From: Microcystis aeruginosa NIES-2549
Lineage (GTDB): Bacteria > Cyanobacteriota > Cyanobacteriia > Cyanobacteriales > Microcystaceae
Direction of reading: 5' to 3'
Assembly: GCF_000981785.2 (NCBI RefSeq)
Contig: NZ_CP011304.1
Location: 2,550,001 to 2,582,000 of the forward strand
DNA length: 32,000 nucleotides
How positions within the stretch are numbered: the first letter of the stretch is position 1; the number at the start of each line of letters is the position of its first letter. The notes beneath the pieces are model-generated. The model was not told the origin of the DNA and did no database searches. It was given only the letters and a program-made list of their open reading frames with translations. Positions 8,576 to 25,358 of this stretch are shown piece by piece. A program made the translations under genes and the position numbers.

Positions 8576-8626
8576 AATCTCAAACCTTTTGTCGAGACGT
8601 TACCCCTAACGTCTCTTTTTGTCCGG

Positions 8627-9097: not shown

Positions 9098-9185
9098 TCC
9101 TAGCGTTAACTTCCGGTGTCGGACAGGTCTTAGGATGATTGATGATCGAGTTTAATAATTATTTTAGGTAACTGAGCATCTACAG

Positions 9186-10112
9186 CTAGATTAATCCCAA
9201 TAAACTCACCATTAAAGCTTTTTGGGCGTGCATCCGATTCTCCGCTTGTTCCCAGACTTTTGATTGTACACCCTCGATCGCCCCGTCGGTAATTTCTTCA
9301 CCCCGGTGAGCAGGTAAACAATGGAGAATAATCGCGTCTTTGTCAGCGTGACTCATTAGCTGTTCATTGACTTGGTAGGGCTGAAAAACGGGAATTCGGG
9401 CATCAGCGAGGCTTTCCTGTCCCATACTCGCCCAGACATCAGTATAGACCACCTGAGAGTCTTTTACTGCCGTAACGGGATCGTCGGTAATTAAGATTTT
9501 ACTACCGGTTTTCTCGCCAATAGCCTGGGCGCTGGCGACAATTTCCCCATCCGGTTGATAGTTTGCGGGGGAGGCAACCCGCACATTTAGCCCCATCAAA
9601 GCACCACCCAAGAGGAGAGAATTAGCGACATTATTACCATCCCCCACATAGGTGAGGTTAATTCCCCGTAAAGTCTGAAAAGTCTCTTGGATAGTCTGTA
9701 AATCGGCTAATATCTGGCAGGGATGTTCTAAATCCGTTAAAGCGTTGATAATCGGGATGCGCGAGTAATTGGCAAAAGCTTCTAAATCCTCTTGTTTAAA
9801 GGTGCGAACTGCGAGAATATCGAGATAGCGATCGAGTACCCGGGCTGTATCGGCTAAGGGTTCCCCCCGTCCCACTTGGGTTACACTGGGATTAAGATCG
9901 ATCACCTGTCCCCCTAACTGGTACATGGCGACGGTAAAGGAAACCCGGGTCCGGGTGGAAGCTTTATAAAATAGCAATCCCAAGACTTTTTTGCAGCTAG
10001 GGTTAAGAGTGCCAGCTTTAAGCTGTGCCGATAGATTGAGTAGGGCGCTGATTTCTTCGCTACTCATGTCGGTTATTCTTAAAACATCTCGTCCTTTTAA
10101 AGTGGCTACCAT
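9186..10112 (-). CDS. argF: ornithine carbamoyltransferase
   Basis: 308 aa with STRTRVSF (carbamoyl-phosphate site), HPCQILAD, DVWASMG and HCLPAHRGEE. Confidence 0.95.
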   Translation of the reverse strand: MVATLKGRDVLRITDMSSEEISALLNLSAQLKAGTLNPSCKKVLGLLFYKASTRTRVSFTVAMYQLGGQVIDLNPSVTQVGRGEPLADTARVLDRYLDILAVRTFKQEDLEAFANYSRIPIINALTDLEHPCQILADLQTIQETFQTLRGINLTYVGDGNNVANSLLLGGALMGLNVRVASPANYQPDGEIVASAQAIGEKTGSKILITDDPVTAVKDSQVVYTDVWASMGQESLADARIPVFQPYQVNEQLMSHADKDAIILHCLPAHRGEEITDGAIEGVQSKVWEQAENRMHAQKALMVSLLGLI

Positions 10113-10440: not shown

Positions 10441-13400
10441 CTACTTAACTAATTTTGCCCCACACTTAGAACAAAAATTAGACGAGGGCGGGTTTTTGTG
10501 TCCACAATTACCGCAGATAATTAAAGCTGGGTTAGCCACTTCCGTCACCGGAGAAAGAGGAATTTCTCCACCGCTATCCAACTTATAGTTATGGATTAAC
10601 TGCAAAATAATTGCATCTTCCCGTTTATATTCTGTATTGTCTTTTCCTCCTGTTAATTCCTCGGAACGTTGTTGTAAATATTCAATGAAAGTCCGATACA
10701 AAGCTTGTTTTTTCTCTGGAGTGGCTGAATCCTGTAACTTAGCTGTCACCTGACTTTGAATTTTTTCCTTATCTTCGCGACAAGCTTTTACTTCTAACAC
10801 CTGTACCGCGTCTTCCCAACTGGTAGCGATATCGACTTTTTTTAATCCCGTTGCGGTTTTAATTTCATAGCGAATTGTTTTCTCATTAGTGACTCGATTG
10901 ACTTCTGGAAAAAGCACTTTTAAAGCCCGGGCTGTCACCACCAATTGATAAATACTCGGATCTTCGGGAAAAACATCCCAGAAAGGAGGTTCCTTTTGGA
11001 TATGCACGGGGATGGGTAAATCGCGATTTTCTCCCATTTGTTGGGCGCGTTTAGCGAGAATAAATTCTCCTTTCCAGTCCTGATAGGATTGCCGCAGTTC
11101 TCGCATTCCCTCGAGACAGCGTAGGGAAAAACCGCCAATTTCCTGCACGAAGACAAGACGATGTTTTTCCACTTCTGCCAAGGGTTTAATATCGTCTTCG
11201 TTGGGGATAAATTCCCGCAGTTTCGGCATAATTTTTTGGGCTGCTGGGTTATTGGTATTTCTTCCCCCAATCAGGGCAACATTTTGATTTAATTGCGGCG
11301 TAAAACCCGCATCTTTTCCTCGCAAAACCGCAGGATTAAGCATAATTAGTGGTCGCGATTTTTGGTAGGCAATGCGAAGATTATTGATAATATCGGCATC
11401 GTTGTTATAAATTTTTAACAAGCGATCGCAGGCGGATAATTCCTGCTGAATGCGACTACTAGCGGGAGCATTTTGTAGTAGTTGATTAGCTTGGTTTAGG
11501 ATAACTTGTTGAAAATCTCTTTGACGAATATCGGCAATCTCGGTGATGTCAAATAAACGCATATTTTCATCAGCGCGGCGCGTTTCTTTCCAGAGGGGGC
11601 TAGATTGCTTTAAAATCTCTTCTGAGAGGGGTAAACAAAGGTTATCCATACCTGTATCGTAGGCATTTTTGTTGCCGGCAATCCCCGATGCAAATTGTTC
11701 GATAAAGTCTTGATAAAGACCATTTAATTCTTGTCTGTCAAATAATTTAATCCCATTAATTAATAAAGCATCGGCACTATCGATCTGTTGATTAGCTTGG
11801 AGATTAAATAGATCGCGACTTTGAATTAATTTCTGACGGAAGCGATTAAACCGGCTTTCTAATTGATTAAGATGTTCCAGTAAACGATTAATAACCTCTA
11901 CTCCTGCACCTCTGGTTTTTCGTTGAATATTGGCCATTAAATAGCCTTCCAATCCCGTTAAAGCTTCTTCACAATATTCTTCCATCTTATCTTTTTTCGA
12001 GATATGAAGTTTATCTTTGAGATCATTAATTTCCGCTAAGGCTGTATCGTATTCTCGTTGACGTTTACTTTCATTTTGACTCCAAACCTGTTCTTGATCG
12101 CGACGGAATTTTTCTGCTATGTCGGTGAAGATTTGTCGTACTAAAATAATAAAACTCTCGGCAAATTTTACCCCACGGTTCCGATCCTCAAGGATATTAT
12201 AAAACTCCATTTCTAGGGACTTTTTACCCCGTTGAATAATTTCATCTCGGTTACTATAAATCTTTTTCAGGTAATCGCCGTGCAGCCGTTCATCGGGACT
12301 CAATTCTAGTAAATGATTGCGTTTAAATTCCTCGACTCTTGGCGTTAAATAATCATTAATAAATTGCAGAATTTTTCCCTGTTCATTGCCTAAAATATTA
12401 ACACCCTGTTTGGTACAAGATAGCCAATTATCTTGATTGATTTCCTGACGAGTTTCGTTAATCCATTGGGAGATTATGGCAATTAAAGAGCGATCCTTGT
12501 CGGCACATAAATCCATAATTAATTCCCCTTCGCTCAAGCGCATTCTTTTGAGGATATCACCTCTGACTAACTCCAACATTTGAGCGGGTAAAATCACGGA
12601 ATCATTCAGCCACCAATTAATTAAATCTTTGGCTAAACGTTCCGATAAAGAGGCACGAATTTGGGCAATAGGAATTTCAATAGTTGATAGCCCAAAACTC
12701 ATAAATTGCTTAGGATAACCGCGACCCCCAGGGTCAGCTTGCGCCCAAGAACCCTTAATATTATCTCTAATGGAACGCTTATGGGGAGCAAAATCAGAGG
12801 TCATATCTAGGAAGATATTTTGGGCGATCATTTCCCGAATTTGACCGAGTTTAAAATCACCTTCTCCGTTTTTTGTCCCCACTAAGTAAGTAAAATCAAA
12901 GGGGGGTAGCTTACTAACAACTTCATCGACTAAACCGCTGCTAAACTGTTGATGATATTCGGTTCTGTAGTCAGAAAAGTAATTTAATTCCATCAGGGCA
13001 GCGTAACCATTAGCCAAAACTCGATCGCCGACACTAATCCCCGCAAATGCTTCAGGAGTGGGAACAATTGCCGTACTCAAAGGACTACTTTCCCCGCGTA
13101 ACCAATTACGAATACAGTAGCCTAGATCGATTAACATTCCGCTACCTGTACCACCGTTTAAAGACCCCGTAGTAAAGACATTAATAGCAGTATTATTAAC
13201 TTTAATTCCATAGCGATCGAGCATAAAGTTTTCTTGTCCTTTTACCCGTCTCACCGCATCCAGAAATTTTCTTTGGATCTCATGATAATTACAAAATAAA
13301 GCAAAACGTCCACAGGCGCGAATTTGTCCCGCTCCCGCTTCCAGGGAAGTAATATTTCTCTCTAATTCCGGGGGAAACCAACTATTAATCCAGGGATATC

Positions 13401-13677
13401 TATCCATGTCAGATACCATCTCCTGTACCTGTTTTCCACTCACCCGGGCCCAGTGTTTTTCGTTATCTTTAAAAGCACTGCCAGCAGCTTCAGGATTACT
13501 GATTTTATAATCCTTATCCGTGTCAACCACCAAAAAACTGACAATCGGAAAATTGCTCAAACTGCCATAACTTTCCTCGATTAGACGACGCAAGCGCGAT
13601 AAAATTTCGTTACCCGTGCCACCTATACCCACTAAAACCGTGGGAACCATGCTTTTTTCTTCTACTGCTGCTGGCAT
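10441..13677 (-). CDS. giant tubulin/FtsZ-superfamily GTPase-like protein with a long helical region and a C-terminal zinc ribbon
   Basis: 1078 aa. G-loop VLVGIGGTGNEIL (aa 14-26) and tubulin-signature-like GSLNGGTGSGMLIDLG (aa 171-186). The following roughly 800 aa are charged and helical. The C-terminus is CGNCGHKNPPSSNFCSKCG (CxxC-x10-CxxC). An alternative start is M10. Confidence 0.85.
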   Translation of the reverse strand: MPAAVEEKSMVPTVLVGIGGTGNEILSRLRRLIEESYGSLSNFPIVSFLVVDTDKDYKISNPEAAGSAFKDNEKHWARVSGKQVQEMVSDMDRYPWINSWFPPELERNITSLEAGAGQIRACGRFALFCNYHEIQRKFLDAVRRVKGQENFMLDRYGIKVNNTAINVFTTGSLNGGTGSGMLIDLGYCIRNWLRGESSPLSTAIVPTPEAFAGISVGDRVLANGYAALMELNYFSDYRTEYHQQFSSGLVDEVVSKLPPFDFTYLVGTKNGEGDFKLGQIREMIAQNIFLDMTSDFAPHKRSIRDNIKGSWAQADPGGRGYPKQFMSFGLSTIEIPIAQIRASLSERLAKDLINWWLNDSVILPAQMLELVRGDILKRMRLSEGELIMDLCADKDRSLIAIISQWINETRQEINQDNWLSCTKQGVNILGNEQGKILQFINDYLTPRVEEFKRNHLLELSPDERLHGDYLKKIYSNRDEIIQRGKKSLEMEFYNILEDRNRGVKFAESFIILVRQIFTDIAEKFRRDQEQVWSQNESKRQREYDTALAEINDLKDKLHISKKDKMEEYCEEALTGLEGYLMANIQRKTRGAGVEVINRLLEHLNQLESRFNRFRQKLIQSRDLFNLQANQQIDSADALLINGIKLFDRQELNGLYQDFIEQFASGIAGNKNAYDTGMDNLCLPLSEEILKQSSPLWKETRRADENMRLFDITEIADIRQRDFQQVILNQANQLLQNAPASSRIQQELSACDRLLKIYNNDADIINNLRIAYQKSRPLIMLNPAVLRGKDAGFTPQLNQNVALIGGRNTNNPAAQKIMPKLREFIPNEDDIKPLAEVEKHRLVFVQEIGGFSLRCLEGMRELRQSYQDWKGEFILAKRAQQMGENRDLPIPVHIQKEPPFWDVFPEDPSIYQLVVTARALKVLFPEVNRVTNEKTIRYEIKTATGLKKVDIATSWEDAVQVLEVKACREDKEKIQSQVTAKLQDSATPEKKQALYRTFIEYLQQRSEELTGGKDNTEYKREDAIILQLIHNYKLDSGGEIPLSPVTEVANPALIICGNCGHKNPPSSNFCSKCGAKLVK

Positions 13678-14636: not shown

Positions 14637-15142
14637 AGGATAGCTGTCAGGATAGAGGATTCTTTTTCTAGTCTAGGCTGTTTTGATCGATTTCTCGATC
14701 AAATTGCTGCTTTTCTGTATTTGATCACTTGGAAACAGGAAATCCCCTGATTTTGACCTAACTCTGCAATAATTACTCGCAGCCAGAAATACGTTGGTTC
14801 ATATATCATACTTTGTGCTTTTTGTCAAAAAAACTTTTTTTTTGCAATAAAACTACACAAAAAAAAGATCATCGTTGTGGGTGAAATTGACTGATTTACT
14901 CGTCTTAATTAGGATCACCTTGTAGGTGTGGCAAGGGTTTCAACCATTGCCGCCCAAAAAAGCACAAAATAACCCATTATGAAATTCAGTAAAATCGCTG
15001 TAACCATTATAACATCGTTGTTAAATAAAAATCTTTCTCAATTAATTCTTAAGAATTTGTAAATATTGCGGAATGTTAATTTAAATATTCTCAAGCTTTT
15101 GGAGTCAATAAATAATTTTTGCTTATCTTTGTCCAACATCAG

Positions 15143-15345
15143 GTTAGAAGTTAGAAGTTAGAAGTCAGGAGTCAGGAGATTATTTTTATTTATTCTTCCC
15201 ACACCCCACACCCCTCTCCCATCACCCCACACCCCACACCCCACACCCCACACCCGTTCGGACCTCGGACGTTCGGCGAGACTTCGGACGTTCGGCGAGA
15301 CTTCGGCGTGAGCTTTTGTCGAACGCTGATCTCACGGCCGAAGCC
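15143..15345. repeat. composite short-tandem-repeat block inside a 1.1-kb AT-rich gene desert
   Basis: (GTTAGAA)x3 and (GTCAGGA)x2 at 15143-15178. (CCCCACA)n at about 15198-15255. A 19-nt unit ACGTTCGGCGAGACTTCGG occurs twice at about 15269-15306, preceded by a degenerate partial copy. A long imperfect hairpin CTTCGGCGTGAG...CTCACGGCCGAAG lies at about 15301-15343. Confidence 0.85.
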
Positions 15346-15727
15346 CACACCCCATCCCTAGAACGATTTTGGATTGAGAATCCTGAAAATCCTCAAATCC
15401 TGATTAGATTTTGGCTTGTTAGAACTTCCTGTAAATATTGACTTTACTCTGTTTCTTGTTACCTTAATCCTAAAAGTTAGAACGAGATTGTAACAAAAAA
15501 CAACAAAAAATAACAAAAAAAATGATGAAAATTTACAAAAAAGAATCCCAAAAGTGTTGAAAAATAAATCAAGTATGCGTACTATTCAACAAAGTAAAGA
15601 AAAAACCGAATCTTAAAACTGCTGCAAGTGGGTTGGGCGCATTGACATCCTCTCGCAGTATAACAGCGAAGATTGCTAAATCTCACGATTTAGGCTTCTG
15701 CTTCCTTCATCCCTACATACTATAGTT

Positions 15728-15829
15728 ATGACCACACTTCTAGTCCCAGTTTACCTTGATGCCCTCTACCTCCCCACCAAGACAAATGTACTGGAGGAAA
15801 TGACTGATTATCAGCAATTCTCATTTTGA
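15728..15829 (+). pseudogene. 33-codon stub, probably the 5' end of a gene destroyed by the adjacent IS
   Basis: ATG at 15728, translation MTTLLVPVYLDALYLPTKTNVLEEMTDYQQFSF, then TGA at 15827-15829. This is 14 nt before the IS inverted repeat, and possibly at the IS terminus itself if the IR extends to GAAAACAAAAG. Confidence 0.3.
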
Positions 15830-15843
15830 AAACAAAAGAAGAT

Positions 15844-17489
15844 AAAGTTCTCTATGTGAACAAGAGAACTTCTGTCTAATTATCATTTTTTTTCAAGATA
15901 ATCATCATAATTAGCTTCAAGAGACAGTTTTAAAATATCTGCCCATAAATAAACTTATCTCAACTCATAAATTTAGCTGAAATTCTGACCTAATTTGTGG
16001 TTTTTTCAATGAATAAAATAATCTTTCCTTCTCTCGAAAAATTGACATTTTTAACTAGAATTTATTTTTTTGAGCGGGACATATTCGGTAAGAATAAACA
16101 AGAAAAACTCTGACCAATTCTTAAACCAAAAATATTTTAATAAAGTACGAATATCATTAAAAAAACTGGTGCGAGTAACTAATAACTCACGAATATTTTG
16201 ATAAGTATGATTAACTAAATCTAAAACGGTATGAAATAAAAAAGCTAGTAAATTTAAAGACAACAAGAACTCGCATAAATGACTTTGACCATGACCAAAA
16301 TTATGTTCTAAATTATAACCGTGATTTTTAAGAACGTTATTTCCTTCATTCTCAACTTTCCATCTGCTGCGTCCAGCTTTGACAATTTTTTCAACATTAT
16401 TTTCAGTAATTTGATGATTGGTAATCCAATTATTTTGATAGATAATTTTCTGTGTTTTTTCATTAATGACCGTGACTTCACACCAATTAACTTCGAGACT
16501 TGACTCGACCTCTCTCAGAGGAACTCTAGAAACATAACGATAACGATAAATGAGATTCTTTCGTCCATCCCATTGTTTCTTTTCTACGGCTTTAACTTCT
16601 CCACTTTTTTCTAAAAATTCTAGCCATTCATATAAGGTTTTATGAGAAGTTTCAAGACAAACAAAAATAAAATTATAACCTTGTTTTAGAGCTAACTCAC
16701 AGATAGGTTGGCGAGAGTATAAGTCATCTCCTAACAGGGTTACAGGATAACCATACTTCTTTTGATGATTCTTATCTAACCATCTTTTAACAGCCGCATT
16801 TTCACAATCTTGTTTTTGCTGCCCATCTTGTTTTTTAATAAATTCTGGTTCTAAATTAATCACTTGTTTTTGCTCAGGAGAAACCACAATTGGCGTGACG
16901 CAACCATGAAAATAAGTTGTCGTTCCATTACGATGATTGCGGCAATTACAATGGGGACAACTAATTTTCTTTGAAGAAAAATATTCCGTACCATCTAAAG
17001 CTATTAAAATTTCCTCATCTAAGTAGAAAAATTTTTTAATAACTCCCTGTTTTTTTAACCATTGATAGACTTGTTGAAAAGAGCCAAATATTGTGGCAGC
17101 TGGGATAGGATCTAACAGGTTTCTGATTTGATTATCACCAGGTATTTTTTTGATACCAAATAAACTTGAAGCATTATCTTTTCCCTTACTACTTTTCATC
17201 AAACGTTGATGCTCTAAAAAAGAAGGTGACTGAGTAAAAAAAACCGAAAAAGCCGCCTTAACTGCATCTTCTACCTGATATTTGGTATTGTTTCCTGGTT
17301 TTCTGTCATCGGGTAAGTCATGTAATTCTTGAACTAAAAATTGTATTAATTCAGGAATTTCTAAAGTCACAGCCTTTTTCGTCATCGCAGAACAGTTTGA
17401 TTAATTAATATTTCCAACTTAATAATTTTACCTCAACAGACAACAATCATCAATTTTTATTTGGTTCTCTTTCTGATGTAGAGAACTTT
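15844..17489 (-). mobile_element. insertion sequence, about 1.65 kb, single DDE transposase, imperfect 26-bp terminal inverted repeats
   Basis: Left end AAAGTTCTCTATGTGAACAAGAGAAC (15844-15869) versus the reverse complement of the right end AAAGTTCTCTACATCAGAAAGAGAAC (17464-17489), 21/26 identical. Each end is itself a hairpin (GTTCTCT-N9-AGAGAAC). The interior is very AT-rich. No flanking direct repeat was found. Confidence 0.75.
16051..17385 (-). CDS. DDE-type IS transposase (IS4/ISNCY-like; family not verified)
   Basis: 444 aa. It has a CPHC...C zinc-finger-like segment, LLGDDLYS, and the C-terminal RSRWKVENEGNNVLKNHGYNLEHNFGHG block characteristic of RW-x-x-E-N-E DDE transposases. It lies between the inverted repeats. 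Confidence 0.85.
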   Translation of the reverse strand: MTKKAVTLEIPELIQFLVQELHDLPDDRKPGNNTKYQVEDAVKAAFSVFFTQSPSFLEHQRLMKSSKGKDNASSLFGIKKIPGDNQIRNLLDPIPAATIFGSFQQVYQWLKKQGVIKKFFYLDEEILIALDGTEYFSSKKISCPHCNCRNHRNGTTTYFHGCVTPIVVSPEQKQVINLEPEFIKKQDGQQKQDCENAAVKRWLDKNHQKKYGYPVTLLGDDLYSRQPICELALKQGYNFIFVCLETSHKTLYEWLEFLEKSGEVKAVEKKQWDGRKNLIYRYRYVSRVPLREVESSLEVNWCEVTVINEKTQKIIYQNNWITNHQITENNVEKIVKAGRSRWKVENEGNNVLKNHGYNLEHNFGHGQSHLCEFLLSLNLLAFLFHTVLDLVNHTYQNIRELLVTRTSFFNDIRTLLKYFWFKNWSEFFLFILTEYVPLKKINSS

Positions 17490-17659
17490 TGTTCTAGATT
17501 TCTCCCATCTTTCAAATATTTTGAGTATAAATACTCTATATACTCACTTCTCTGCGATGCAGTCGCACTCGCGGGAGCGCATTTTGTAGCTTGCTTAAAG
17601 CTTTGTTTCTGTCTGTATCACTTGTTACTTTTTAAAATGAGAATTGCTGGGATAAATAT

Positions 17660-19246
17660 ATGCCCATATCCATCGGCTCCGGCTTTATTGCCATCGGACT
17701 CAAGTTTACCTGCTTCCAGATGTTAGACTGCTTTGCGCTGCTAACCGTCGCCTTTGGGGAAGATTTCGAGATCAACCTGTTGGGAATTGCCAAGATGAAA
17801 ATTCCCACTCCGGCAAAAGACTCGAAAAATACAAGCTGTATTCTCAATATGACGATGCTCCTACGAGCCAGATTTTCTCTGAGTGAAGGAGTAATCTCCA
17901 TAGAAGGTCAATTAGCCTCAGATTGCTACATCCTATCGCCAGATTGCCGCTTAACTGGTGGCTTTGCCGTCTGTCTCTGGGTTTCTGGCCCTCATGCAGG
18001 GGATTTTGTCATTACTTTAGGCGGTTATCACCCCCTATTCAAAAAACCTGCCCACTATCCTACAGTCCCTCGTCTGGGTTTCCACTGGAAAGTAGGAGAT
18101 TGCCTATCCCTCAAGGGAGAAAAATACTTTGCTCTGTGCGCTCATGCCATCATGGCCGGTGGCCGACTAGAAGCCAATTTCAAACTCGGTAAACTGTGGG
18201 CTAACTTTGTCGCTGAGGCTCATTTCCTCATCTCTTGGAAACCCTACTACTACGAAATCCTAGTACAAGTGAGGATTCAAGCTGGCTATGGAATACTCGG
18301 ACCTGTTAGTTTAGGGGTGCAACTCCATATCTGGGGTCCAGAATTTGCCGGTACAGCCACATTCTGGATTATCTTCGTCAAAGTCACTGTGGAATTTGGC
18401 GATCAATCTTCTCGCTTACCAGAGCCTATCGATTGGGAAAGTTTCCAAAGTTCCTTCTTACCCCCTGCGAAATCAACAGCACAAGGTTCATCAACAGCTG
18501 CAGACGTTTGTAGTGTTGTTCTCAATCAAGGAGTCACCAAACAACTCTCACCAGCAACAACCAAAGAAGTCGCCTTTGTCGTCAATCCCAAAGAGTTAGA
18601 GCTAGTAGTTAATTCTGCTATCCCCAGCAAGCAAGCATCTTACAATACCCAATCTCTTGGGGTGAATAACAACACCGATTTTGGCGTTCGTTCCATGGGC
18701 ATTAAAAATGCTCAACTCGAAAGCAAGTACAACATCAAAATTACCCGGAAGACAAAGGGAGGAATCTCACAACCCGTTGACCAGAACCAGTTCCAATTTA
18801 TCCCGATAACTCAAGATGTACCAACCGCACTTTGGGGCGATGCTAAAGTTAAAGTTGTCAAAGTAAAGGGTAAAGACTCAGAACGAATTCTTCTCCCTGA
18901 AGCTAACGATCAGCAATTTGTTAAGAACACCCTCTCCGGTTTCCGGATTGTTCCTCAAATCAAGAAAGATGTCTGTAGCACCAATAGTATTGATGTCAAG
19001 AAATTGCGACACGATACCACCCGCCTAAGTGACGTTTACGCTTGGCAACAAATGACGGCTTTTTCTGGGGTTTCTACCGACAATCAAGCTCGAACTACAG
19101 CCATCAAAAACAACATTGTCAGCACCAATACTCAGAAGACGCGCAACAATCTGCTCCAATCTCTCGGCTTTAATCTAGCCGATGATGTTAAATTAACCGA
19201 TTCGGTGGCTAATTCTTTTGTCACTGCACCCCAGGTTAAAGCGTAA
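17660..19246 (+). CDS. 5'-truncated remnant of a large uncharacterised protein (GGYHP-motif domain; reminiscent of the DUF6603 family from memory, unverified)
   Basis: 528-aa ORF with an in-frame stop 27 nt upstream of its first ATG. The conserved-looking core is GGFAVCLWVSGPHAGDFVITLGGYHPLFKKPAHYPTVPRLGFHW...MAGGRLEANF...FLISWKPYYYEI. It starts about 170 bp after the IS end with no SD or promoter context. Confidence 0.6.
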   Translation: MPISIGSGFIAIGLKFTCFQMLDCFALLTVAFGEDFEINLLGIAKMKIPTPAKDSKNTSCILNMTMLLRARFSLSEGVISIEGQLASDCYILSPDCRLTGGFAVCLWVSGPHAGDFVITLGGYHPLFKKPAHYPTVPRLGFHWKVGDCLSLKGEKYFALCAHAIMAGGRLEANFKLGKLWANFVAEAHFLISWKPYYYEILVQVRIQAGYGILGPVSLGVQLHIWGPEFAGTATFWIIFVKVTVEFGDQSSRLPEPIDWESFQSSFLPPAKSTAQGSSTAADVCSVVLNQGVTKQLSPATTKEVAFVVNPKELELVVNSAIPSKQASYNTQSLGVNNNTDFGVRSMGIKNAQLESKYNIKITRKTKGGISQPVDQNQFQFIPITQDVPTALWGDAKVKVVKVKGKDSERILLPEANDQQFVKNTLSGFRIVPQIKKDVCSTNSIDVKKLRHDTTRLSDVYAWQQMTAFSGVSTDNQARTTAIKNNIVSTNTQKTRNNLLQSLGFNLADDVKLTDSVANSFVTAPQVKA

Positions 19247-19371
19247 TTCAAGTGGGGCAGGTCTGCTGTTGCCCATTTAAACGGGGTATTCTAGGGTTAG
19301 AAAATCCCTAAAACTCCCCCCCTCTCTCTCCTACTCTCTAGCTTCAATCCACAATACAAAATCAATTAATC

Positions 19372-21264
19372 ATGTCCACATCAACAGTTAAAGTTCAATT
19401 CATCCAACATCGCCAACCTCCCCTAGATAGTGGTACTTACACAGTCGAAGTTGAACAAAAAGTTAAAACCAAACAGTCTGACAAAATACCTGAGCAGACA
19501 TTCAGTAAAGAGCTTACCTTTTATGTAGATGGCCACCGGTTTGCTCCCCTAACTCCTGATAGCATTTATGCCGTTTTTCCCCCTGCGGGAAACTTGGGTG
19601 AGTATTCTAATGCCTTGCCCCATATCATCCTCAAACGCGGTACTCTGCCTTGGGAGCGTACTATCAAATCAACAAATTCTGATCTCCCTTGGTTAGCTCT
19701 CCTTTTGTTTCAGGAATCAGAAAAACCTGAACCACAAACGATTAAATTAAAGGAGCTAAAAGCAACTTCTGGTAATACTAAATTCCCCACATTTGCATAC
19801 GAGCCGGGGCAAAATGATGAAGATGTGGTGACGGTAATTGATGTCCCTAAAAACATTTTAGAAAAGATTCTTCCTCCAGAAAAGGATCTGACTCTACTTG
19901 CGTCTGTTAACCAAATAACCAACGAGAAAAATGAATCTCTCAGTGAACCTTTAGCCACTATTTTAGGCAACCGCTTACCCAAGAAAGGGGAAGTGAGTAC
20001 CGTTCATTTAGTCGCCCTTGAAGAACGCTATAATAGTGGAACATTTGACTATCAAGGTGCAGGACCTAACGATTTCATCCGTTTAGTTAGTCTTGCTAGT
20101 TGGAGTTTTACCTGTGTTAATAGTAAGCACAATTTCGATGCCCTGCTTAAAGAAATTGATCGCGAACCCGATACCCTCAGACTTCCCTCCCAAAACAATC
20201 ATCCAGCGAAGCAATACCTAGATTTAGGTTATGTACCTCTCCACCACGCTCTGCGACAAGGAGATAAAACAGTTTCTTGGTATCATAGCCCTTTAAGTAC
20301 AGGCCAAAGCCAAGATAATCTAACCGCTCCTGTTGCTATAGCTGATCAATTGATGCGTTATGATCCTAATACGGGTATGTTTGATGTTTCCTACGCTATG
20401 GCTTGGCAGTTAGGACGAATGCTCACCCTACAAAATCAACCCCTGGCTGTTGAGATTTTTAACTGGAAACGCTCTAAAGCTCAAGATTTACATCAGATAC
20501 AGCAACAAGTGCTGCACCTACCTTTCCAAAGCACAACTGAAACTAACGGGGATCTACCAACAGCGATCGCCAATTGGTTCCAAGATTTAGAATTGCTCAA
20601 AAACGTTCCCTTTAACTATTTAGTTCCCGATACACGGTTACTTCCCCCCGAATCTTTGCGCTTCTTTTGGATAGACTCTTATTGGGTTGACTGCTTACAA
20701 GATGGGGCTTTTAGTGTCGGACGAGTTACGAAAGAAGACTTACGATTAGATGTTCAAACTCGCAGTTTACAGCGAAGAAGCCTCGCCCCGTCTGATAAAA
20801 CTATTACTGGCTTTTTGTTACATTCAGAAGTAGTATCCGGTTGGCCCGGTTTAGAAATAGAAGGTTACGTCAATCGCGTAACTGGAACCGATTTTGTCGG
20901 ACCAGAGAATAAACTAACCATACTCCGAAGAGATCTGCTATCAGATAATATCTTACTCTGTTTTTTTGCCGGGGAAGTCAAAACCCTTGACCTTTCGCTT
21001 CAGGGATCATCCGTTAATTGTGGTGTAGATCCGATTAAAAAAGGAACTAAGATTACTAAAGGACTACGAAACCTCGATGGTGAGCAAAAGACGGGGAACA
21101 TAGAGGTTCCCTTCCGAAATGAAAATCTAGGAGTAATTAATATTGAGGAAATGACCAAGAGGCTCAAACAAGGATTAAATGTACCCTACGATTTCACTTC
21201 TGCTCAATTGGCAGCCACCATGATTGAGGGATCGCCCAAAGTTAGATTTGTCGCACGGGGTTAG
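19372..21264 (+). CDS. 630-aa hypothetical protein, partner of the upstream remnant; no recognisable enzymatic motif
   Basis: Long uninterrupted ORF. Distinctive blocks are LPWERT, DLPWLALLLFQESE, VSWYHSPL, FDVSYAMAWQLGRMLTLQN and FNYLVPDTRLLPPESLRFFWIDSYWVDCLQDGAFSVGR. Confidence 0.85.
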   Translation: MSTSTVKVQFIQHRQPPLDSGTYTVEVEQKVKTKQSDKIPEQTFSKELTFYVDGHRFAPLTPDSIYAVFPPAGNLGEYSNALPHIILKRGTLPWERTIKSTNSDLPWLALLLFQESEKPEPQTIKLKELKATSGNTKFPTFAYEPGQNDEDVVTVIDVPKNILEKILPPEKDLTLLASVNQITNEKNESLSEPLATILGNRLPKKGEVSTVHLVALEERYNSGTFDYQGAGPNDFIRLVSLASWSFTCVNSKHNFDALLKEIDREPDTLRLPSQNNHPAKQYLDLGYVPLHHALRQGDKTVSWYHSPLSTGQSQDNLTAPVAIADQLMRYDPNTGMFDVSYAMAWQLGRMLTLQNQPLAVEIFNWKRSKAQDLHQIQQQVLHLPFQSTTETNGDLPTAIANWFQDLELLKNVPFNYLVPDTRLLPPESLRFFWIDSYWVDCLQDGAFSVGRVTKEDLRLDVQTRSLQRRSLAPSDKTITGFLLHSEVVSGWPGLEIEGYVNRVTGTDFVGPENKLTILRRDLLSDNILLCFFAGEVKTLDLSLQGSSVNCGVDPIKKGTKITKGLRNLDGEQKTGNIEVPFRNENLGVINIEEMTKRLKQGLNVPYDFTSAQLAATMIEGSPKVRFVARG

Positions 21265-21324
21265 AGATGAGCCTTTAGTCAACGAAACTATTCAGTTATT
21301 AGAGGAAATTGATTTTCCTGATAA

Positions 21325-21462
21325 TTAAGAGGTGTTAGCGGCTGATTCATCGCCCTGGAGTAGATAATTTAGCCCCAAATACCAGTAATTCGCCACGTTT
21401 TCAGGATTAGCATCAATTTGTTCCTGATAGTAAGCGATTTGTTCAGAAAGATTATTTTCCAT
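21325..21462 (-). pseudogene. 45-codon ORF resembling the first TPR of a larger TPR protein, likely a truncated fragment
   Basis: Translation MENNLSEQIAYYQEQIDANPENVANYWYLGLNYLLQGDESAANTS*. The A-x-x-Y-Y/NP...YW.LG pattern is TPR-like. It is too short to be a complete TPR protein. Confidence 0.3.
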
Positions 21463-21472
21463 AATAGTCTAG

Positions 21473-21659
21473 GTAGGGTTGGCCGAATAAATCTAAAAAC
21501 CTTGTTGGGTAATGTCTTTGGGCTTTTTGAAAATCAAAAAGTACCGGATATGGGAGTGATCGGGGGGGACAATTCAGGTACTTTTTCCCTGAAAATTAGG
21601 TAATTGACCTCCTCAAAATCGGTAAAACCCTACACCCCACACCCCATACCCTACCCCCA
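21473..21659 (-). repeat. dispersed intergenic repeat, copy B (inverted relative to copy A at 8391-8575)
   Basis: The reverse complement reads GGGTTTTACCGATTTTGAGGAGGTCAATTACCTAATTTTCAGGGAAAAAGTACCTGAATTGTCCCCCCCGATC...CCCAACAAGGTTTTTAGATTTATTC. I count about four differences from copy A over the first ~72 nt, and the distal 24 nt are identical. The degenerate CCCCACA head is at 21628-21659. Confidence 0.85.
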
Positions 21660-21685
21660 CGACAAACTTTTTCCACATACCCTAA

Positions 21686-22930
21686 CTAACTCAACGCTTC
21701 AAAATAATCGCGAATTTGGTTACATCGTTGGGGTTGACGCAGTTTTTGCAACGCTTTCGACTCAATTTGTCGCACCCTTTCCCGGGATAATTCCAAGGTG
21801 CGACCGATATCACCTAAAGAATGGGATTTACCATCGAGAAAACCATAGCGCAATTCAATCACTTCTCGTTCGCGAGTGGTTAAATCTCCCAATAATTCTC
21901 TCATATCTTTTTGCAAAGATTCATAGACAAGACGATTTTCTGAAGACACTTCTTCGGTTTCCAAAATGTCTATTAATTCCGTATCTTTTTCCTTGCCCAC
22001 TTTTATTTCTAAGGAAACCGAACGCGGCACTTTCATCAACAATTCCCGCACAGCTTCAGGAGTCATCGCTAACTCTTGGGCAATTTCCTCTACGGTCGCA
22101 GTGCGACCGCGCATTTGCGAGATTTTCCGTTGTGCCTTCTTAATTTTGTTGAGTTTTTCGGTAATATGAACCGGTAAACGAATAATCCGGCTTTGAGTTG
22201 CGATCGCTCTCGTAATTCCTTGACGGATCCACCAGTAGGCATAGGTACTAAAACGATAGCCTTTGCTGGGATCAAATTTCTCGACGGCGCGTTCTAAACC
22301 CAGGGTTCCCTCTTGAATCAAATCCAATAATTCTAAACCGCGATTCTGATATTTTTTGGCCACCGACACCACTAGACGTAAATTGGCCTTGATCATCTGT
22401 TCTTTGGCACGGGTACCAAGGGCAATAATTTCTTCTAATTCCCCCACTTCTAAGCCCACTAGGTGGGCCCAGTGCTGTTTTCCTGCTTTTAAAGCATTTT
22501 TTAATTCAGAAACGTTTATTTGGGCGGTTTTTGCCCAACGTTCTAGGGAGGGACGATGGGCTAATTGCGCAGTTAGTTGATCGCGAATCTCAATTAACTT
22601 GACAAATTGCTGTACTTGTGCATCACCTTGTTTAACGGCGGTGGCGCGGAATTTCAGTAAAGACAGATGACGCTGCACCTGTTGCGCTTGTTCAACTTCC
22701 TCGTCCCGTTTGAGTAGAGGCACTCTGCCAATGTCTTGCAGGTATAAACGTACTAAATCAGTAGTTGTCCCTTTGTTGTAGCTTTTTTCAGGACTAGATA
22801 CTAGATCATCTTCTAAATCACTGCCGAGAAAATCTTCATCTAGGTTGATCGAGTTTCCCTTCAGTTTTAAGATAGAAAAAGAGGGAGAGATCAATTCAGT
22901 TTCGAGCGTCGAGGGGTTAATTGCAGACAT
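21686..22930 (-). CDS. RpoD-family sigma-70 factor, group-2-like (SigC-like by length and divergent region 1.2)
   Basis: 414 aa. Region 1.2 LVRLYLQDIGRVPLLKRDEEV, region 2 LIQEGTLGLERAVEKFDPSKGYRFSTYAYWWIRQGITRAI, region 3 HITEKLNKI, region 4.2 LGDIGRTLELSRERVRQIESKALQKLR. Confidence 0.92.
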   Translation of the reverse strand: MSAINPSTLETELISPSFSILKLKGNSINLDEDFLGSDLEDDLVSSPEKSYNKGTTTDLVRLYLQDIGRVPLLKRDEEVEQAQQVQRHLSLLKFRATAVKQGDAQVQQFVKLIEIRDQLTAQLAHRPSLERWAKTAQINVSELKNALKAGKQHWAHLVGLEVGELEEIIALGTRAKEQMIKANLRLVVSVAKKYQNRGLELLDLIQEGTLGLERAVEKFDPSKGYRFSTYAYWWIRQGITRAIATQSRIIRLPVHITEKLNKIKKAQRKISQMRGRTATVEEIAQELAMTPEAVRELLMKVPRSVSLEIKVGKEKDTELIDILETEEVSSENRLVYESLQKDMRELLGDLTTREREVIELRYGFLDGKSHSLGDIGRTLELSRERVRQIESKALQKLRQPQRCNQIRDYFEALS

Positions 22931-23162
22931 GATGGCTTCTCTACGGGCGACTGTGATAGGAATTAGAAACTTCTAAATCGTTCACCGTAGTCATAGCTTT
23001 CCCACTTAAGCGAGGAAATGATGCAGTCGGGAAAAATTTTTTTTCAAAAGCATTGATCTTTAAACCTAGAAGTTACACCAATTCTGGGGTTTACCTTCTT
23101 AGCCCAACTTCTAGAATTAATGATTGATTGAGAAGTAATTTCCCCTAAAGCCCTATTCCTAT

Positions 23163-24224
23163 CTATTCCTGACTTTCCAGATAATTACGGATTTGTTCTA
23201 GTTTAGCAAGGGCTTTTCCTGACTGTAAACATTGTTGTGCTTGCTGGAAACCCGCGGGGATATCTGGGACAATTCCACAGCGCCAAAGATAAAAACCACC
23301 GTTAAAAATTGCCGCATCGGTTAATTCATTATTTTCTCCGGCTAATAAACCCTTTAATTTAGCGGTGAGCATTTCTAAAGATTCGAGGGGATAATCCGAG
23401 GGACAAAAACCATAATCGCGAGGATTTAGGAAAAATCGCTGAAAGGAAGGGGGATCGGTGGGATTTCCCAGACCAATAATCGCCGTCCGATTACAGGCTA
23501 AATCACAACTCCCCTCTAATCCTTTCACAGTCGTGAAGTGAGAGATATTTCTCAGGGCAAAAGTTTCGCGAAAACGATCTTCGGTGGGGGGATGAACAAA
23601 ACCCGATATCTGATGAATATTACCGACAAAAGGCGACCAGATTAACTCTACCGTGGCCATGGGCGGACGTTTACCGATTTGCTCCCGATAGGTGACAAAA
23701 TTCTGTACTAGGGGAAAGTGGCGCGGAATATAGAAAAAAGTCAATCCTGTGGTGATTAAACAGTCTTTCACCGCTGCTAAGGATAATTGACTAAAATCTG
23801 CTCCTAATTGCTGCCAGATTTCCCTGAGAGAAATACCGTATTTAGTCGGCATTCGATCGCCCCCGTGCAGGACTACGGGAACCCCCGCCAACCCTAAGAT
23901 TAAAGTAGTGATCGGAGTAACTGGGGCAGTGCGAGAGCGTCCATCGTAGGGATTGCCAAAAATAGTGATCGGATGCTGAAAAGAGGCTGATTCTAGGGTT
24001 ATTTGCGGGCCAAGCTCGGCGTAGGCATCAAGCATTCCCGCTAACTCATCGCTGGTGGGGCGTTTAATGCGATGGGCAATCATGAAAGCACCGATTTGGG
24101 CCGGGGTTGCCTCTTGGGTTAACATCATCTTGGTGGCCATTGCCGCTTCGGGACGGGTTAAATTTTTGCCCGTATGGGTGCCACTACCGATCGCTTTTAA
24201 TAATTCTCGAAAAGTATCGCTCAT
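23163..24224 (-). CDS. anthranilate phosphoribosyltransferase-family (glycosyltransferase family 3) paralog lacking canonical TrpD motifs
   Basis: 353 aa. The N-terminal helical domain (LTRPEAAMATKMML...PAQIGAFMIAHRIKRPT) has TrpD-like architecture. GNPYDGRS replaces GTGGDG, and LHGGDR replaces KHGNR. Confidence 0.8.
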   Translation of the reverse strand: MSDTFRELLKAIGSGTHTGKNLTRPEAAMATKMMLTQEATPAQIGAFMIAHRIKRPTSDELAGMLDAYAELGPQITLESASFQHPITIFGNPYDGRSRTAPVTPITTLILGLAGVPVVLHGGDRMPTKYGISLREIWQQLGADFSQLSLAAVKDCLITTGLTFFYIPRHFPLVQNFVTYREQIGKRPPMATVELIWSPFVGNIHQISGFVHPPTEDRFRETFALRNISHFTTVKGLEGSCDLACNRTAIIGLGNPTDPPSFQRFFLNPRDYGFCPSDYPLESLEMLTAKLKGLLAGENNELTDAAIFNGGFYLWRCGIVPDIPAGFQQAQQCLQSGKALAKLEQIRNYLESQE

Positions 24225-24267
24225 CTCAAGGAAGAAAATAAAGAGTAAATAGGATTGATTGGGATTG

Positions 24268-25239
24268 CTAAGGCTGTAAAGGGTGGTTTTCTAAGCTTTC
24301 TAGCACACTTTGATTCATTTGCCGCACTAATTGACAAAAATGAGCGATCGGTGGTATCTGTAAGCGATCGCTGGTGGTGACAAGGACTACCTGACGGGTG
24401 AGGCGCTGGTGAAATTTACCATGATTAGGGTGGGGATTTTTGTTGTTGGGGCAAGCAAGAGGACGAATGGCGAGGGTAGCATCGCTGCGGGCTTCCATCA
24501 GGGCTGATTGGGGCAGAAGAGCGATAATATTACCCTGACGCACCACACCGCGAAAAGCATCAAGGGTGTTTAATTCCATGACAGTTTTCAGGTGGGCATC
24601 CTGACGGGAAAACCATTCTTGTACTAATCTTTGCATTCCGTAGCCATCTTTGAAAACCACTTGCGGATAGGGGATTAATTCCGACCATGGCACTTCTTTG
24701 TATTGGGCGAGGGGATGATTAGCGGCCATGAGAATTTCGATCGCTTCTTGGTATAATACCTCGACCACCATCTCCGGGCTAGAGGTGAGAAAACGATTAT
24801 TCATTACCAACGCCACATCTACTAAACCATCCCGCAAGACTTTTAAAGCGCGATCGCTGCCTAGGGCTGTAACTCTCAACTGAACTTCTGGGTATTCAGC
24901 ACAAAATTTCGGCAAAATCGGCGGTAAATAGTGGGCGCACACGGAATGAATCGCCGCCACGCACAATTCTGGCTGTTTTCCTGCCTGTAGGTCAGTGATT
25001 TCCCTGTGAACATTCGTCCATTCTTGACAAATTCGTTTCGCCCGGGGCAGTAATTTCTCGCCGGCAATGGTTAACTTCGCTTGGGCGGTACGATGAAAAA
25101 GAGGTAAGCCCAAATCGGTTTCTAGGGATTGAATCTGCCGGCTGATAGTCGATTGGGTGACTCCACACTGGCGGGCGGCTTGACCGAAATTGCCCGTATC
25201 GGCTACGGCTAAAAAGGCTTGCAATTGCTCGATCCGCAT
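24268..25239 (-). CDS. LysR-family transcriptional regulator
   Basis: N-terminal HTH MRIEQLQAFLAVADTGNFGQAARQCGVTQSTISRQIQSLETDLGLPLFHR, followed by a LysR substrate-binding domain of typical length. Confidence 0.93.
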   Translation of the reverse strand: MRIEQLQAFLAVADTGNFGQAARQCGVTQSTISRQIQSLETDLGLPLFHRTAQAKLTIAGEKLLPRAKRICQEWTNVHREITDLQAGKQPELCVAAIHSVCAHYLPPILPKFCAEYPEVQLRVTALGSDRALKVLRDGLVDVALVMNNRFLTSSPEMVVEVLYQEAIEILMAANHPLAQYKEVPWSELIPYPQVVFKDGYGMQRLVQEWFSRQDAHLKTVMELNTLDAFRGVVRQGNIIALLPQSALMEARSDATLAIRPLACPNNKNPHPNHGKFHQRLTRQVVLVTTSDRLQIPPIAHFCQLVRQMNQSVLESLENHPLQP

Positions 25240-25327
25240 TCTTTCTCGTTTTAATTACATTCCTTCATGACTTTATGACAATAACGAATTTTATTGGGAC
25301 TTTTGGTAGAAATTGCTACCGTTTTCT

Positions 25328-25358
25328 CAGTTATCAGTCATCAGTTATCAGTTATCAG
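25328..25358. repeat. heptanucleotide STR (CAGTTAT/CAGTCAT)x4 upstream of the LysR gene
   Basis: Read directly: CAGTTATCAGTCATCAGTTATCAGTTATCAG. It is followed by the inverted repeat ATGTGA-N9-TCACAT and repeats of GTTCACTGTT. Confidence 0.85.

What the first reader, a model, noticed from the sequence alone, without database searches (positions are those of the whole stretch)
15728..21264. IS-decapitated remnant of an uncharacterised multi-gene module (GGYHP-domain giant protein plus 630-aa PWLALL partner)
Three pieces look like the wreck of one locus.
(a) A 33-codon stub (MTTLLVPVYLDALYLPTKTNVLEEMTDYQQFSF) follows a 1.1-kb AT-rich leader and terminates at the IS boundary.
(b) A 528-aa ORF begins abruptly about 170 bp after the other IS end and has an in-frame stop 27 nt upstream. 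Its core (GGFAVCLWVSGPHAGDFVITLGGYHPLFKKPAHYPTVPRLGFHW ... MAGGRLEANF ... FLISWKPYYYEI) I recall only from the C-terminal part of very large (>1000 aa) bacterial proteins annotated DUF6603. That recollection is unverified.
(c) An intact 630-aa ORF 125 bp downstream carries strongly patterned blocks (DLPWLALLLFQESE, VSWYHSPL, FDVSYAMAWQLGRMLTLQN, FNYLVPDTRLLPPESLRFFWIDSYWVDCLQDGAFSVGR). It has no nucleotide-binding, nuclease, protease or transmembrane signature that I can see.
Neither ORF matches a characterised family known to me. The pairing suggests a conserved system of unknown function whose intact form should exist in related genomes.
Basis: partly seen in the sequence, partly recalled or inferred. 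Interest (0 to 1): 0.78.

Follow-up and report, generated by a model that had tools for sequence, protein, structure and literature searches.

The report
IS-truncated remnant of unknown five-gene module
A mobile element has deleted about 8.3 kb from a five-gene cluster in this Microcystis strain, and the intact cluster turns out to be conserved in at least twelve bacterial phyla while matching no characterised protein family, system or solved structure.

Summary
The window matches Microcystis aeruginosa NIES-2549.

- **The deletion.** A 1,838-bp IS (15812-17649, 21-nt terminal inverted repeats) sits where the near-identical strain NIES-3806 (99.5%) has about 8.3 kb.
- **What is left.** The 33-codon stub is the first 28 codons of the module's first gene, a 1,430-aa "giant" protein, plus IS-encoded codons. 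The 528-aa ORF is residues 468-995 of a 995-aa DUF6603 protein. The 630-aa gene is intact.
- **The intact module.** It reads giant, 64-aa protein, fibre/lectin protein, DUF6603, then the ~640-aa partner ("p630").
- **Co-occurrence.** In 60 of 68 species-level loci from at least 12 phyla, DUF6603 lies directly upstream of p630.
- **Family size.** The p630 family has 4,479 clusters at 50% identity.
- **No known relatives.** p630 has no Pfam, NCBIfam, PADLOC, PHROG or PDB match. A confident model (pLDDT 89) has no structural relative. No paper mentions DUF6603.
- **Not phage.** The module is absent from phage and viral collections, and its proteins lack signal peptides.

My functional guess (about 0.3) is a cytoplasmically assembled complex that carries an exchangeable binding subunit for targeting other cells.

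The parts
15491..15727 (+). Conserved 5' leader of the module, upstream of the first gene
   Evidence: 92% identical to L001 2465-2702, directly upstream of the intact first gene. Sequence further upstream (14637-15490) is not shared and is full of short tandem repeats. No Rfam element.
15728..15811 (+). First 28 codons of the module's first gene (the 'giant' protein, 1,430-1,493 aa when intact). The annotated 33-codon stub runs on to 15829 through IS-derived codons.
   Evidence: tblastn of the stub against L001 2703-2801, E 1.4e-14. The junction is exact at 15811|15812. The same N-terminal motif (TLLVPxxxDALYLP) is found in Microcoleus.
15812..17649 (.). Insertion sequence, 1,838 bp, with 21-nt terminal inverted repeats (15812-15832 and 17629-17649) and an inner repeat pair (15844-15869 / 17464-17489)
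   Evidence: Inverted repeats. The boundaries coincide with both homology breakpoints. Copies 81-86% identical, starting at query position 1, occur on Anabaena, Nostoc and Calothrix plasmids. The flanks are not a target-site duplication.
16051..17385 (-). Transposase gene of the IS (444 aa, DDE type, IS4-like)
   Evidence: PF01609 DDE_Tnp_1, E 2.3e-4. NF033591 IS4 family, E 3.2e-5. Both are below the curated cutoffs.
17650..19246 (+). 3' remnant of the DUF6603 gene (from the last base of codon 464 to codon 995). The called 528-aa ORF starts at internal Met 468 (17660).
   Evidence: PF20248, profile 185-477 of 502. 99.5% identical to NIES-3806 L088 from 8281 onward, where the gene spans 6890-9877. 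Deposited as 'SRCAP-like transcriptional activator'.
19372..21264 (+). Intact last gene of the module ('p630', 630 aa, MYAER_2575)
   Evidence: 100% identical to the NIES-2549 protein. The family has 4,479 representative clusters. AF2 model pLDDT 89.4. No family or structural match.

Best explanation
Shown: the locus is what is left of a five-gene operon-like module after an IS-associated deletion. The intact module, as in the near-identical strain NIES-3806, runs giant protein (1,430 aa), 64-aa protein, fibre-slot protein (791 aa), DUF6603 protein (995 aa), then p630 (630 aa). In this strain a 1,838-bp IS4-like element replaces about 8.3 kb, from codon 29 of the first gene to codon 464 of the DUF6603 gene. 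The flanks are not a target-site duplication. That fits either recombination between two IS copies or an IS-mediated adjacent deletion. The module is therefore inactivated here. The 528-aa ORF is a decapitated fragment that opens at an internal Met, and p630 is an intact but orphaned gene. The event is recent: 99.5% nucleotide identity to the intact relative, and 11 and 5 differing codons in the two surviving ORFs.

Shown for the module: the core families (giant, fibre-slot protein with a conserved ~190-aa core, DUF6603, p630, often also the 64-aa protein) travel together in the same tight order across at least 12 phyla. They have no signal peptides or clear TM helices, no ATPase or other recognisable enzymatic core domain, and no relatives in phage or viral collections.

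Inferred (about 0.3): the proteins assemble in the cytoplasm into one multi-subunit complex. In it a constant scaffold (giant, DUF6603, p630) carries an exchangeable surface-binding subunit: a Peptidase_S74 fibre in cyanobacteria, Laminin_G_3 or Calx-beta lectins elsewhere. This would be a cell-targeting particle or toxin complex, working like Tc toxins, tailocins or umbrella toxins but unrelated to them.
For: Deletion: homology to L001 stops at window 15811 and resumes at 17650, exactly at the IS inverted repeats. NIES-3806 has the intact module with the same downstream genes, at 99.3-99.5% identity. Full-length DUF6603 proteins are 995-1,004 aa.

Module: the same gene order occurs in NIES-298, Phormidium, Nostoc and Chondromyces. 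In 60 of 68 loci DUF6603 ends within 700 nt of the p630 start, and the median distance from the DUF6603 stop to the first aligned p630 residue is 40 nt. Of 54 loci with more than 9 kb upstream, 40 have a giant gene and 48 a fibre-slot gene.

Binding subunit: Peptidase_S74, Laminin_G_3, Calx-beta and beta-helix domains and tail-fibre PHROGs. A conserved core at profile positions ~200-390 with variable remainder. Within Microcystis the fibre gene is 60-74% identical where the other genes are 92-98%. Two fibre paralogues share one N-terminus.

Localisation and origin: no signal peptides or TM helices. Absent from IMG/VR and from 50,697 phage genomes.
Against: The functional part rests on domain content and analogy only. 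No toxin or effector domain, pore-forming signature, lysis gene or secretion gene was found in or next to the module. Lack of signal peptides was judged by a simple hydropathy scan and by reading N-termini, not by a dedicated predictor. Only p630 was modelled; the giant and DUF6603 proteins were not, so a structural link to a known machine could have been missed. Physical interaction of the proteins is untested. For the deletion, the mechanism (two-copy recombination or adjacent deletion) cannot be decided from one window.
Confidence: 0.85

Rival explanations
1. The 528-aa ORF is a genuine short DUF6603 gene and the stub is a chance ORF, so nothing has been deleted.
For: Both ORFs are open. 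DUF6603 proteins of 480-700 aa are listed in the database. The ORF is annotated as a gene in GenBank.
Against: The Pfam match begins at profile position 185. Intact Microcystis orthologues are 995-1,004 aa. The alignment to NIES-3806 and L001 breaks exactly at the IS ends. The stub matches the first 28 codons of the intact first gene. Many short database entries come from short contigs or are marked partial.
Confidence: 0.02
2. The intact module is an anti-phage defence (abortive-infection type) system. The fibre/lectin protein or the large proteins would sense phage components, and an MBL-fold nuclease would act as effector where present.
For: 16 loci have an MBL-fold gene between the fibre and DUF6603 genes. 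It resembles the ComEC C-terminal, Avs1a and 6A-MBL MBL domains at sub-threshold scores. Distribution is patchy, degraded copies recur and the module is sometimes plasmid-borne. Cytoplasmic proteins would suit a sensor.
Against: No PADLOC model matches any module protein. The core has no ATPase, nuclease, protease, TIR or Sir2 domain. The MBL gene is in a minority of loci. Lectin, Calx-beta and S74 fibre domains are extracellular binding modules. No consistent defence-island neighbours were seen.
Confidence: 0.12
3. The module builds a structure for the cell's own surface, for adhesion, matrix or colony cohesion or cell-cell contact, not for acting on other cells.
For: Lectin, Calx-beta, beta-helix and fibre domains. 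One giant homologue carries a peptidoglycan-binding domain. Host taxa are rich in multicellular, filamentous or surface-associated lifestyles (lifestyle from general knowledge).
Against: No signal peptides, lipoboxes, sortase or S-layer anchors, or TM segments were seen. No export genes are linked. Within-species hypervariability of the fibre gene is more typical of antagonistic or receptor-recognition functions.
Confidence: 0.2
4. The module is a fragment of a prophage or an unrecognised virus-like element, for example a tail-tip or fibre module.
For: Peptidase_S74 and tail-fibre PHROG hits for the fibre-slot protein.
Against: No p630 relative in 2.9 million viral contigs or in 50,697 phage genomes. 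No PHROG hit for the giant, DUF6603 or p630 proteins. No capsid, terminase, portal or integrase is consistently nearby. The five-gene unit is self-contained in different genomic contexts.
Confidence: 0.05

Closest known systems
Pfam PF20248 (DUF6603)
   Same: The 528-aa ORF is a member by sequence (296 bits). Full-length homologues carry the whole 502-position domain.
   Different: The family has no known function and no literature. The window copy lacks the first 184 profile positions and the whole N-terminal region.
Phage tail fibres and tailspikes with a C-terminal Peptidase_S74 intramolecular chaperone
   Same: The fibre-slot protein of the intact cyanobacterial module has this domain and GIGT-type fibre repeats. 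It follows the usual plan of a conserved N-terminal part with variable distal parts.
   Different: It is not in a phage: there are no other phage genes and no viral homologues of the partner genes. The gene is deleted in this window.
Contractile injection systems and tailocins (eCIS, R-type pyocins, T6SS)
   Same: Cytoplasmically made multi-protein modules without signal peptides, carrying exchangeable fibre-type binding proteins. The distribution across complex-lifestyle bacteria is similar (distribution of eCIS from general knowledge).
   Different: No sheath, tube, baseplate, spike or AAA+ ATPase family was detected in any module protein with Pfam, NCBIfam or PHROGs.
Tc (ABC) toxin complexes
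   Same: A few very large, co-encoded, signal-peptide-less proteins that assemble into a receptor-binding delivery complex (analogy from general knowledge).
   Different: No VRP1, TcdA/TcdB pore, RHS/YD-shell or TcB/TcC-type domains in the module. No sequence or structural match.
Streptomyces umbrella toxin particles (UmbA/B/C)
   Same: A particle that uses diversified lectin domains for target recognition (abstract of bioRxiv 10.1101/2025.04.24.650519). In actinomycetes the fibre slot of this module carries a Laminin_G_3 lectin.
   Different: No trypsin-like domain or other named domain was found in the module proteins. The families are different and the module occurs in many phyla.
IS4-family insertion sequences and IS-mediated deletions
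   Same: A DDE transposase flanked by 21-nt terminal inverted repeats, with loss of the sequence between two target points and no target-site duplication.
   Different: The transposase scores are below the curated family cutoffs, so the IS family assignment is tentative.

Membership tests
DUF6603 (PF20248) | Score above the Pfam gathering threshold | tested here: met
   296.1 bits against 27, E 5.6e-88.
DUF6603 (PF20248) | Complete domain (profile positions 1-502) | tested here: not met
   Only positions 185-477 are matched, starting at residue 2 of the ORF. Intact homologues match from position 1.
IS4-family insertion sequence | DDE transposase matching the family model | tested here: inconclusive
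   PF01609, 21.4 bits against a cutoff of 23. NF033591, 23.2 bits against 152.
IS4-family insertion sequence | Terminal inverted repeats | tested here: met
   21-nt repeats, 20 of 21 matching, at 15812-15832 and 17629-17649; 0 expected by chance.
IS4-family insertion sequence | Target-site duplication flanking the element | tested here: not met
   The flanks ...ACTGATTAT and GGATAAATA... differ. This is expected if a deletion followed insertion.
Contractile injection systems / tailocins | Sheath, tube, baseplate (gp25/gp6/gp27-like) and spike proteins | tested here: not met
   No such Pfam, NCBIfam or PHROG hit in any gene of intact modules.
Tc (ABC) toxins | TcA pore/VRP1 domains and TcB/TcC RHS cocoon | tested here: not met
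   No Pfam hits in the giant, DUF6603 or p630 proteins.
Known anti-phage defence systems (PADLOC-DB v2) | Match of any component to a PADLOC model | tested here: not met
   0 families for all seven proteins at E <= 0.1.
Phage structural modules | Presence in phage or viral genomes, or PHROG membership of the core proteins | tested here: not met
   No PHROG for the giant, DUF6603 or p630 proteins. No relatives in IMG/VR or in the INPHARED phage collection.
SRCAP/SNF2-type transcriptional activator (the deposited name of the 528-aa ORF) | SNF2 helicase, HSA or any DNA-binding domain | tested here: not met
   The only Pfam hit is DUF6603. The name is given.
Umbrella toxin particles | UmbC with ALF repeats and a toxin domain, UmbA with a trypsin-like domain plus lectin, and UmbB | tested here: inconclusive
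   A lectin (Laminin_G_3) is present in some fibre-slot proteins and no trypsin-like domain was found. I could not confirm that the libraries contain models for ALF repeats or UmbB.

The most novel reading that the evidence does not exclude
The intact module encodes a previously undescribed class of bacterial multi-protein machine. A scaffold of three large proteins with no recognisable relatives (giant, DUF6603, p630) would display exchangeable fibre or lectin binding subunits to act on other cells. It would be evolutionarily unrelated to phage tails, contractile injection systems, Tc toxins and umbrella toxins, and present in at least 12 phyla.
Probability: 0.3. Interest if true: 0.85.

Novelty: categorically new. 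Interest (0 to 1): 0.68.

Why it matters
The IS-mediated deletion is ordinary for Microcystis. What it points to is not. The module has five genes and is self-contained. It has thousands of members in cyanobacteria, actinomycetes, myxobacteria, Bacteroidota, Chloroflexota, Acidobacteriota, Planctomycetota, Leptospira and others. Its core proteins are named only "hypothetical" or "DUF6603", and no paper in 8 million mentions it. One core protein gives a confident predicted structure with no relative in the PDB or among viral proteins.

If the proteins form a fibre- or lectin-targeted complex, this would be a new kind of bacterial cell-targeting apparatus. That would bear on bloom ecology (strain-level antagonism or colony formation in Microcystis) and could serve as a programmable binding or delivery scaffold.

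The window also supplies an experimental handle. NIES-2549 is a natural knockout, and NIES-3806 is a 99.5%-identical strain with the module intact.

Tried and rejected
- **Family scans.** Pfam, NCBIfam, PADLOC and PHROGs on all module proteins found only DUF6603, fibre/lectin domains and a weak MBL.
- **PDB by sequence.** Single sequences and profiles for p630, DUF6603 and the giant gave nothing below E 0.09.
- **First AF2 run.** A 38-sequence cyanobacterial alignment gave a poor C-terminal half (pLDDT 55). I replaced it with a 73-sequence alignment (pLDDT 89).
- **Foldseek.** Against PDB and BFVD there was only Ig-like noise, TM <= 0.12.
- **Shared repeated domain.** I suspected the giant's N-terminus and p630 might share a domain because the motifs look alike. 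hhalign among the giant, DUF6603, p630 and 64-aa families found no relation, so I dropped the idea.
- **Domain fusions.** Long p630 homologues and 31 DUF6603 proteins had no informative fusions.
- **Leader RNA.** No riboswitch or other known RNA motif.
- **Promoters and terminators.** Scans were at chance level, so nothing can be said about expression of the remnant.
- **Substitution pattern.** Too few differences from NIES-3806 (7 synonymous and 4 non-synonymous; 2 and 3) to show relaxed selection.
- **Literature.** Zero hits for DUF6603, PF20248, IPR046538, MYAER_2574/2575, and SRCAP with Microcystis.
- **TamB/AsmA-like or phage gpJ-like DUF6603.** I considered this and did not pursue it, because the Pfam and PHROG scans already cover those families without a hit.


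Full report
**1. The observation**

- the 33-codon stub, 15728-15829 (+)
- a 444-aa transposase ORF, 16051-17385 (-)
- the 528-aa ORF, 17660-19246 (+), with an in-frame TAA 27 nt upstream
- the 630-aa ORF, 19372-21264 (+), 125 nt further on

PF20248 matches at E 5.6e-88, and residues 2-295 align to profile positions 185-477 of 502, so the domain is cut at its N-terminal side. The 630-aa protein has no Pfam or NCBIfam family.

The transposase is weakly DDE/IS4-like, below the curated cutoffs.

One detail needed correcting. The element's true ends are a 21-nt inverted repeat pair at 15812-15832 and 17629-17649 (20 of 21 nt; none expected by chance). The IS therefore ends 10 nt before the ATG of the 528-aa ORF. 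The last five codons and the stop of the stub are IS sequence.

**2. What happened at this locus**

The 630-aa protein is 100% identical to MYAER_2575 of Microcystis aeruginosa NIES-2549.

A contig of another M. aeruginosa strain (L001) carries a longer cluster. Window 15491-15811 aligns to L001 2465-2786, which is the leader plus the first 28 codons of the cluster's first gene. Window 17650 onward aligns to L001 11398 onward, inside the DUF6603 gene. Both junctions are exact to the base and coincide with the IS termini.

Strain NIES-3806 (L088) is 99.3-99.5% identical to the window from 17650 to 25333 and shares the same downstream genes. It has the intact module:
- giant protein, 1,430 aa
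- 64-aa protein
- 791-aa fibre-slot protein
- DUF6603 protein, 995 aa
- p630, 630 aa

The right junction falls on the last base of codon 464 of the DUF6603 gene. The 528-aa ORF is residues 468-995, opening at an internal Met. About 8.3 kb is missing relative to NIES-3806, and 8,611 nt relative to L001.

The flanks (...ACTGATTAT | IS | GGATAAATA...) are not a target-site duplication. That is expected after recombination between two IS copies or after an IS-mediated adjacent deletion. Which of the two occurred cannot be told from this window.

The event is recent. The remnant differs from NIES-3806 at 11 codons (7 synonymous, 4 non-synonymous) and p630 at 5 codons. That is too few to show decay.

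The same 528-aa protein is deposited under two GenBank accessions as "putative transcriptional activator SRCAP-like protein". Nothing supports that name.

**3. The intact module**

The same order appears in M. aeruginosa NIES-298, Phormidium, Nostoc and Chondromyces crocatus. It reads: giant of roughly 1,360-1,490 aa, 64-aa protein (start overlapping the giant's stop by 4-8 nt in the three cyanobacteria), fibre-slot protein, DUF6603, p630.

I analysed the 80 loci that were kept, using HMMs built from the cyanobacterial proteins:
- In 60 of 68 loci with more than 3 kb upstream, a DUF6603 ORF ends within 700 nt of the p630 start.
- The median distance from the DUF6603 stop to the first aligned p630 residue is 40 nt.
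- Of 54 loci with more than 9 kb upstream, 40 show the giant, 48 a fibre-slot protein and 21 the 64-aa protein. The last is short and hard to detect.
- Six loci have the permuted order DUF6603, p630, giant, fibre. A Streptomyces plasmid shows the same order, annotated only as "DUF6603 domain-containing protein" plus "hypothetical".

By the names in the record titles, the hosts span these phyla:
- Cyanobacteriota, Actinomycetota, Myxococcota, Bacteroidota
- Chloroflexota, Acidobacteriota, Planctomycetota, Verrucomicrobiota
- Gemmatimonadota, Spirochaetota (Leptospira), Pseudomonadota, KSB1
- Bacillota, via Paenibacillus plasmids

The exhaustive search gives 4,479 representative clusters at 50% identity for p630, of which 1,823 are at E <= 1e-30.

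Checking from the other direction with three independently chosen DUF6603 genes:
- one full module (Chondromyces)
- one DUF6603 C-terminal part plus p630 next to integrase and transposase genes, with no giant upstream (L092)
- one fragmented DUF6603 without p630 (L091)

Degraded copies therefore recur. In L001 the giant gene is itself split in two by a short insertion.

**4. What the proteins are**

Nothing names them.
- Pfam, NCBIfam, PADLOC and PHROGs give no hit for the giant, the 64-aa protein or p630, and only DUF6603 for the fourth gene.
- All 120 listed giant homologues are "hypothetical", with one isolated PG_binding_1 fusion.
- Sequence and profile searches of the PDB find nothing.
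- The families are unrelated to one another by hhalign.

A first AF2 model of p630 from 38 cyanobacterial sequences was poor. With 73 diverse sequences it reached pLDDT 89.4 and pTM 0.79, showing N-terminal beta-sandwich, central helical and C-terminal beta regions. Foldseek found no credible relative in the PDB (best E 0.05, TM about 0.1) or in BFVD (best E 1.7e-3, TM 0.08).

The one interpretable component is the fibre-slot protein.
- In cyanobacteria it carries Peptidase_S74 and tail-fibre-type repeats.
- In Streptomyces it carries a Laminin_G_3 lectin.
- Extra neighbours in some loci are Laminin_G_3, Calx-beta or beta-helix proteins.
- Across phyla only a core of about 190 residues is conserved (profile positions ~200-390, covered in 43-53 of 55 proteins), while the rest varies.
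- Within Microcystis this gene is 60-74% identical, and alignable only in part, between strains whose other module genes are 92-98% identical.
- NIES-298 has two paralogues with the same N-terminus.

Sixteen loci add an MBL-fold gene that resembles the ComEC C-terminal, Avs1a and 6A-MBL domains at sub-threshold scores.

None of the proteins has a signal peptide or a clear TM helix. p630 has no relative in 2.9 million viral contigs or 50,697 phage genomes. No conserved flanking genes exist, so the module is self-contained.

**5. How it most likely works**

Shown: the genes form a tight, co-oriented, often overlapping unit that is inherited together across phyla. In this window the unit is broken and cannot work as a module.

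Inferred: the combination points to one multi-subunit complex assembled in the cytoplasm, with a constant scaffold that displays an exchangeable surface-binding subunit. The features behind this inference are:
- several very large proteins without enzymatic signatures or export signals
- a small coupled protein
- a component with a constant docking core and rapidly diversifying fibre or lectin modules

This is the logic of tailocins, eCIS, Tc toxins and umbrella toxins. None of their defining proteins is present, so I claim "works like", not "is a member of". I put this at about 0.3.

Rivals for the function:
- own-surface adhesion or matrix structure, 0.2
- anti-phage defence, 0.12
- phage relic, 0.05
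- the remainder is unknown

That the window holds an IS-generated remnant of this module I put at above 0.95.

**6. Comparison, novelty and verdict**

The 528-aa ORF is a truncated member of PF20248. The IS is IS4-like. The deletion is an ordinary event in an IS-rich genome.

By every test available here, the module itself belongs to no described system. No paper in the searchable library mentions DUF6603, its accessions or the locus tags.

Caveats:
- Absence of matches is not proof of novelty.
- The giant and DUF6603 proteins were not modelled.
- Subscription-only literature was not searched.

NIES-2549 is a natural knockout, and NIES-3806 is a 99.5%-identical strain with the module intact.

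Noticed in passing
window 10441-13677 (-): A 1,078-aa protein with an N-terminal Tubulin_2 domain (PF13809, E 4e-111) and a C-terminal zinc ribbon, about 2 kb upstream of the stub. It is not adjacent to the module in other strains, so it is probably unrelated.
   Followed up: no
window 21689-23157 (sigma-factor gene 21686-22930, -): A 414-aa sigma-70-family gene lies between p630 and the Glycos_trans_3 gene here and in NIES-3806. It is absent from the same site in L001, L002 and NIES-298, so this is a strain-level presence/absence polymorphism of a sigma factor.
   Followed up: partly
window 1918-2050 and 8396-8515; L001 4062-4193: A repeat of about 130 bp (82-86% identity), MITE-like. One copy sits exactly where the giant gene of L001 is split into 492-aa and 1,022-aa ORFs, so the module is independently damaged in that strain.
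   Followed up: partly
window 15143-15306 and 15375-15523: Dense short tandem arrays in the non-conserved part of the leader: GTTAGAA x3.3, CCCACAC x8.3, a 19-mer x2.4, and A-rich 9-13-mers. Homology to other strains starts only at 15491.
   Followed up: no
window 17660-19246: The truncated DUF6603 fragment is deposited as 'putative transcriptional activator SRCAP-like protein' (AKE64916.1, AOC53315.1). An Olavius symbiont homologue carries a similar name. This looks like a propagated mis-annotation.
   Followed up: yes
window 17460-17649 (right ~190 bp of the IS): Plasmid copies of the IS in Anabaena, Nostoc and Calothrix align only to query positions 1 to about 1,650. The right-hand ~190 bp, including the right terminal repeat, is not shared at megablast sensitivity. 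There is also an inner inverted-repeat pair at 15844-15869 / 17464-17489. The element may have a variable or composite right end.
   Followed up: no
L092 10001-13967; L091 8124-12219: Other degraded copies. L092 has a 592-aa DUF6603 C-terminal part plus a p630 homologue next to integrase and rve_3 genes, with no giant upstream. L091 has DUF6603 split into three ORFs and no p630.
   Followed up: partly
L054 4376-5632, L029 3924-5204 and 14 further loci: An accessory MBL-fold gene of about 420 aa between the fibre-slot and DUF6603 genes. It resembles the ComEC C-terminal, Avs1a and 6A-MBL domains, all below cutoffs.
   Followed up: partly
L044 (Hormoscilla MAG), 10 kb either side of the p630 homologue: A p630 homologue with no other module gene within 10 kb on either side, so solo p630 genes may exist.
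   Followed up: no
window 14641-14703 (+): A weak Rfam hit to the L17 downstream element (29.5 bits against a gathering score of 37, E 0.005), next to the RNase Z-like gene. Probably chance.
   Followed up: no
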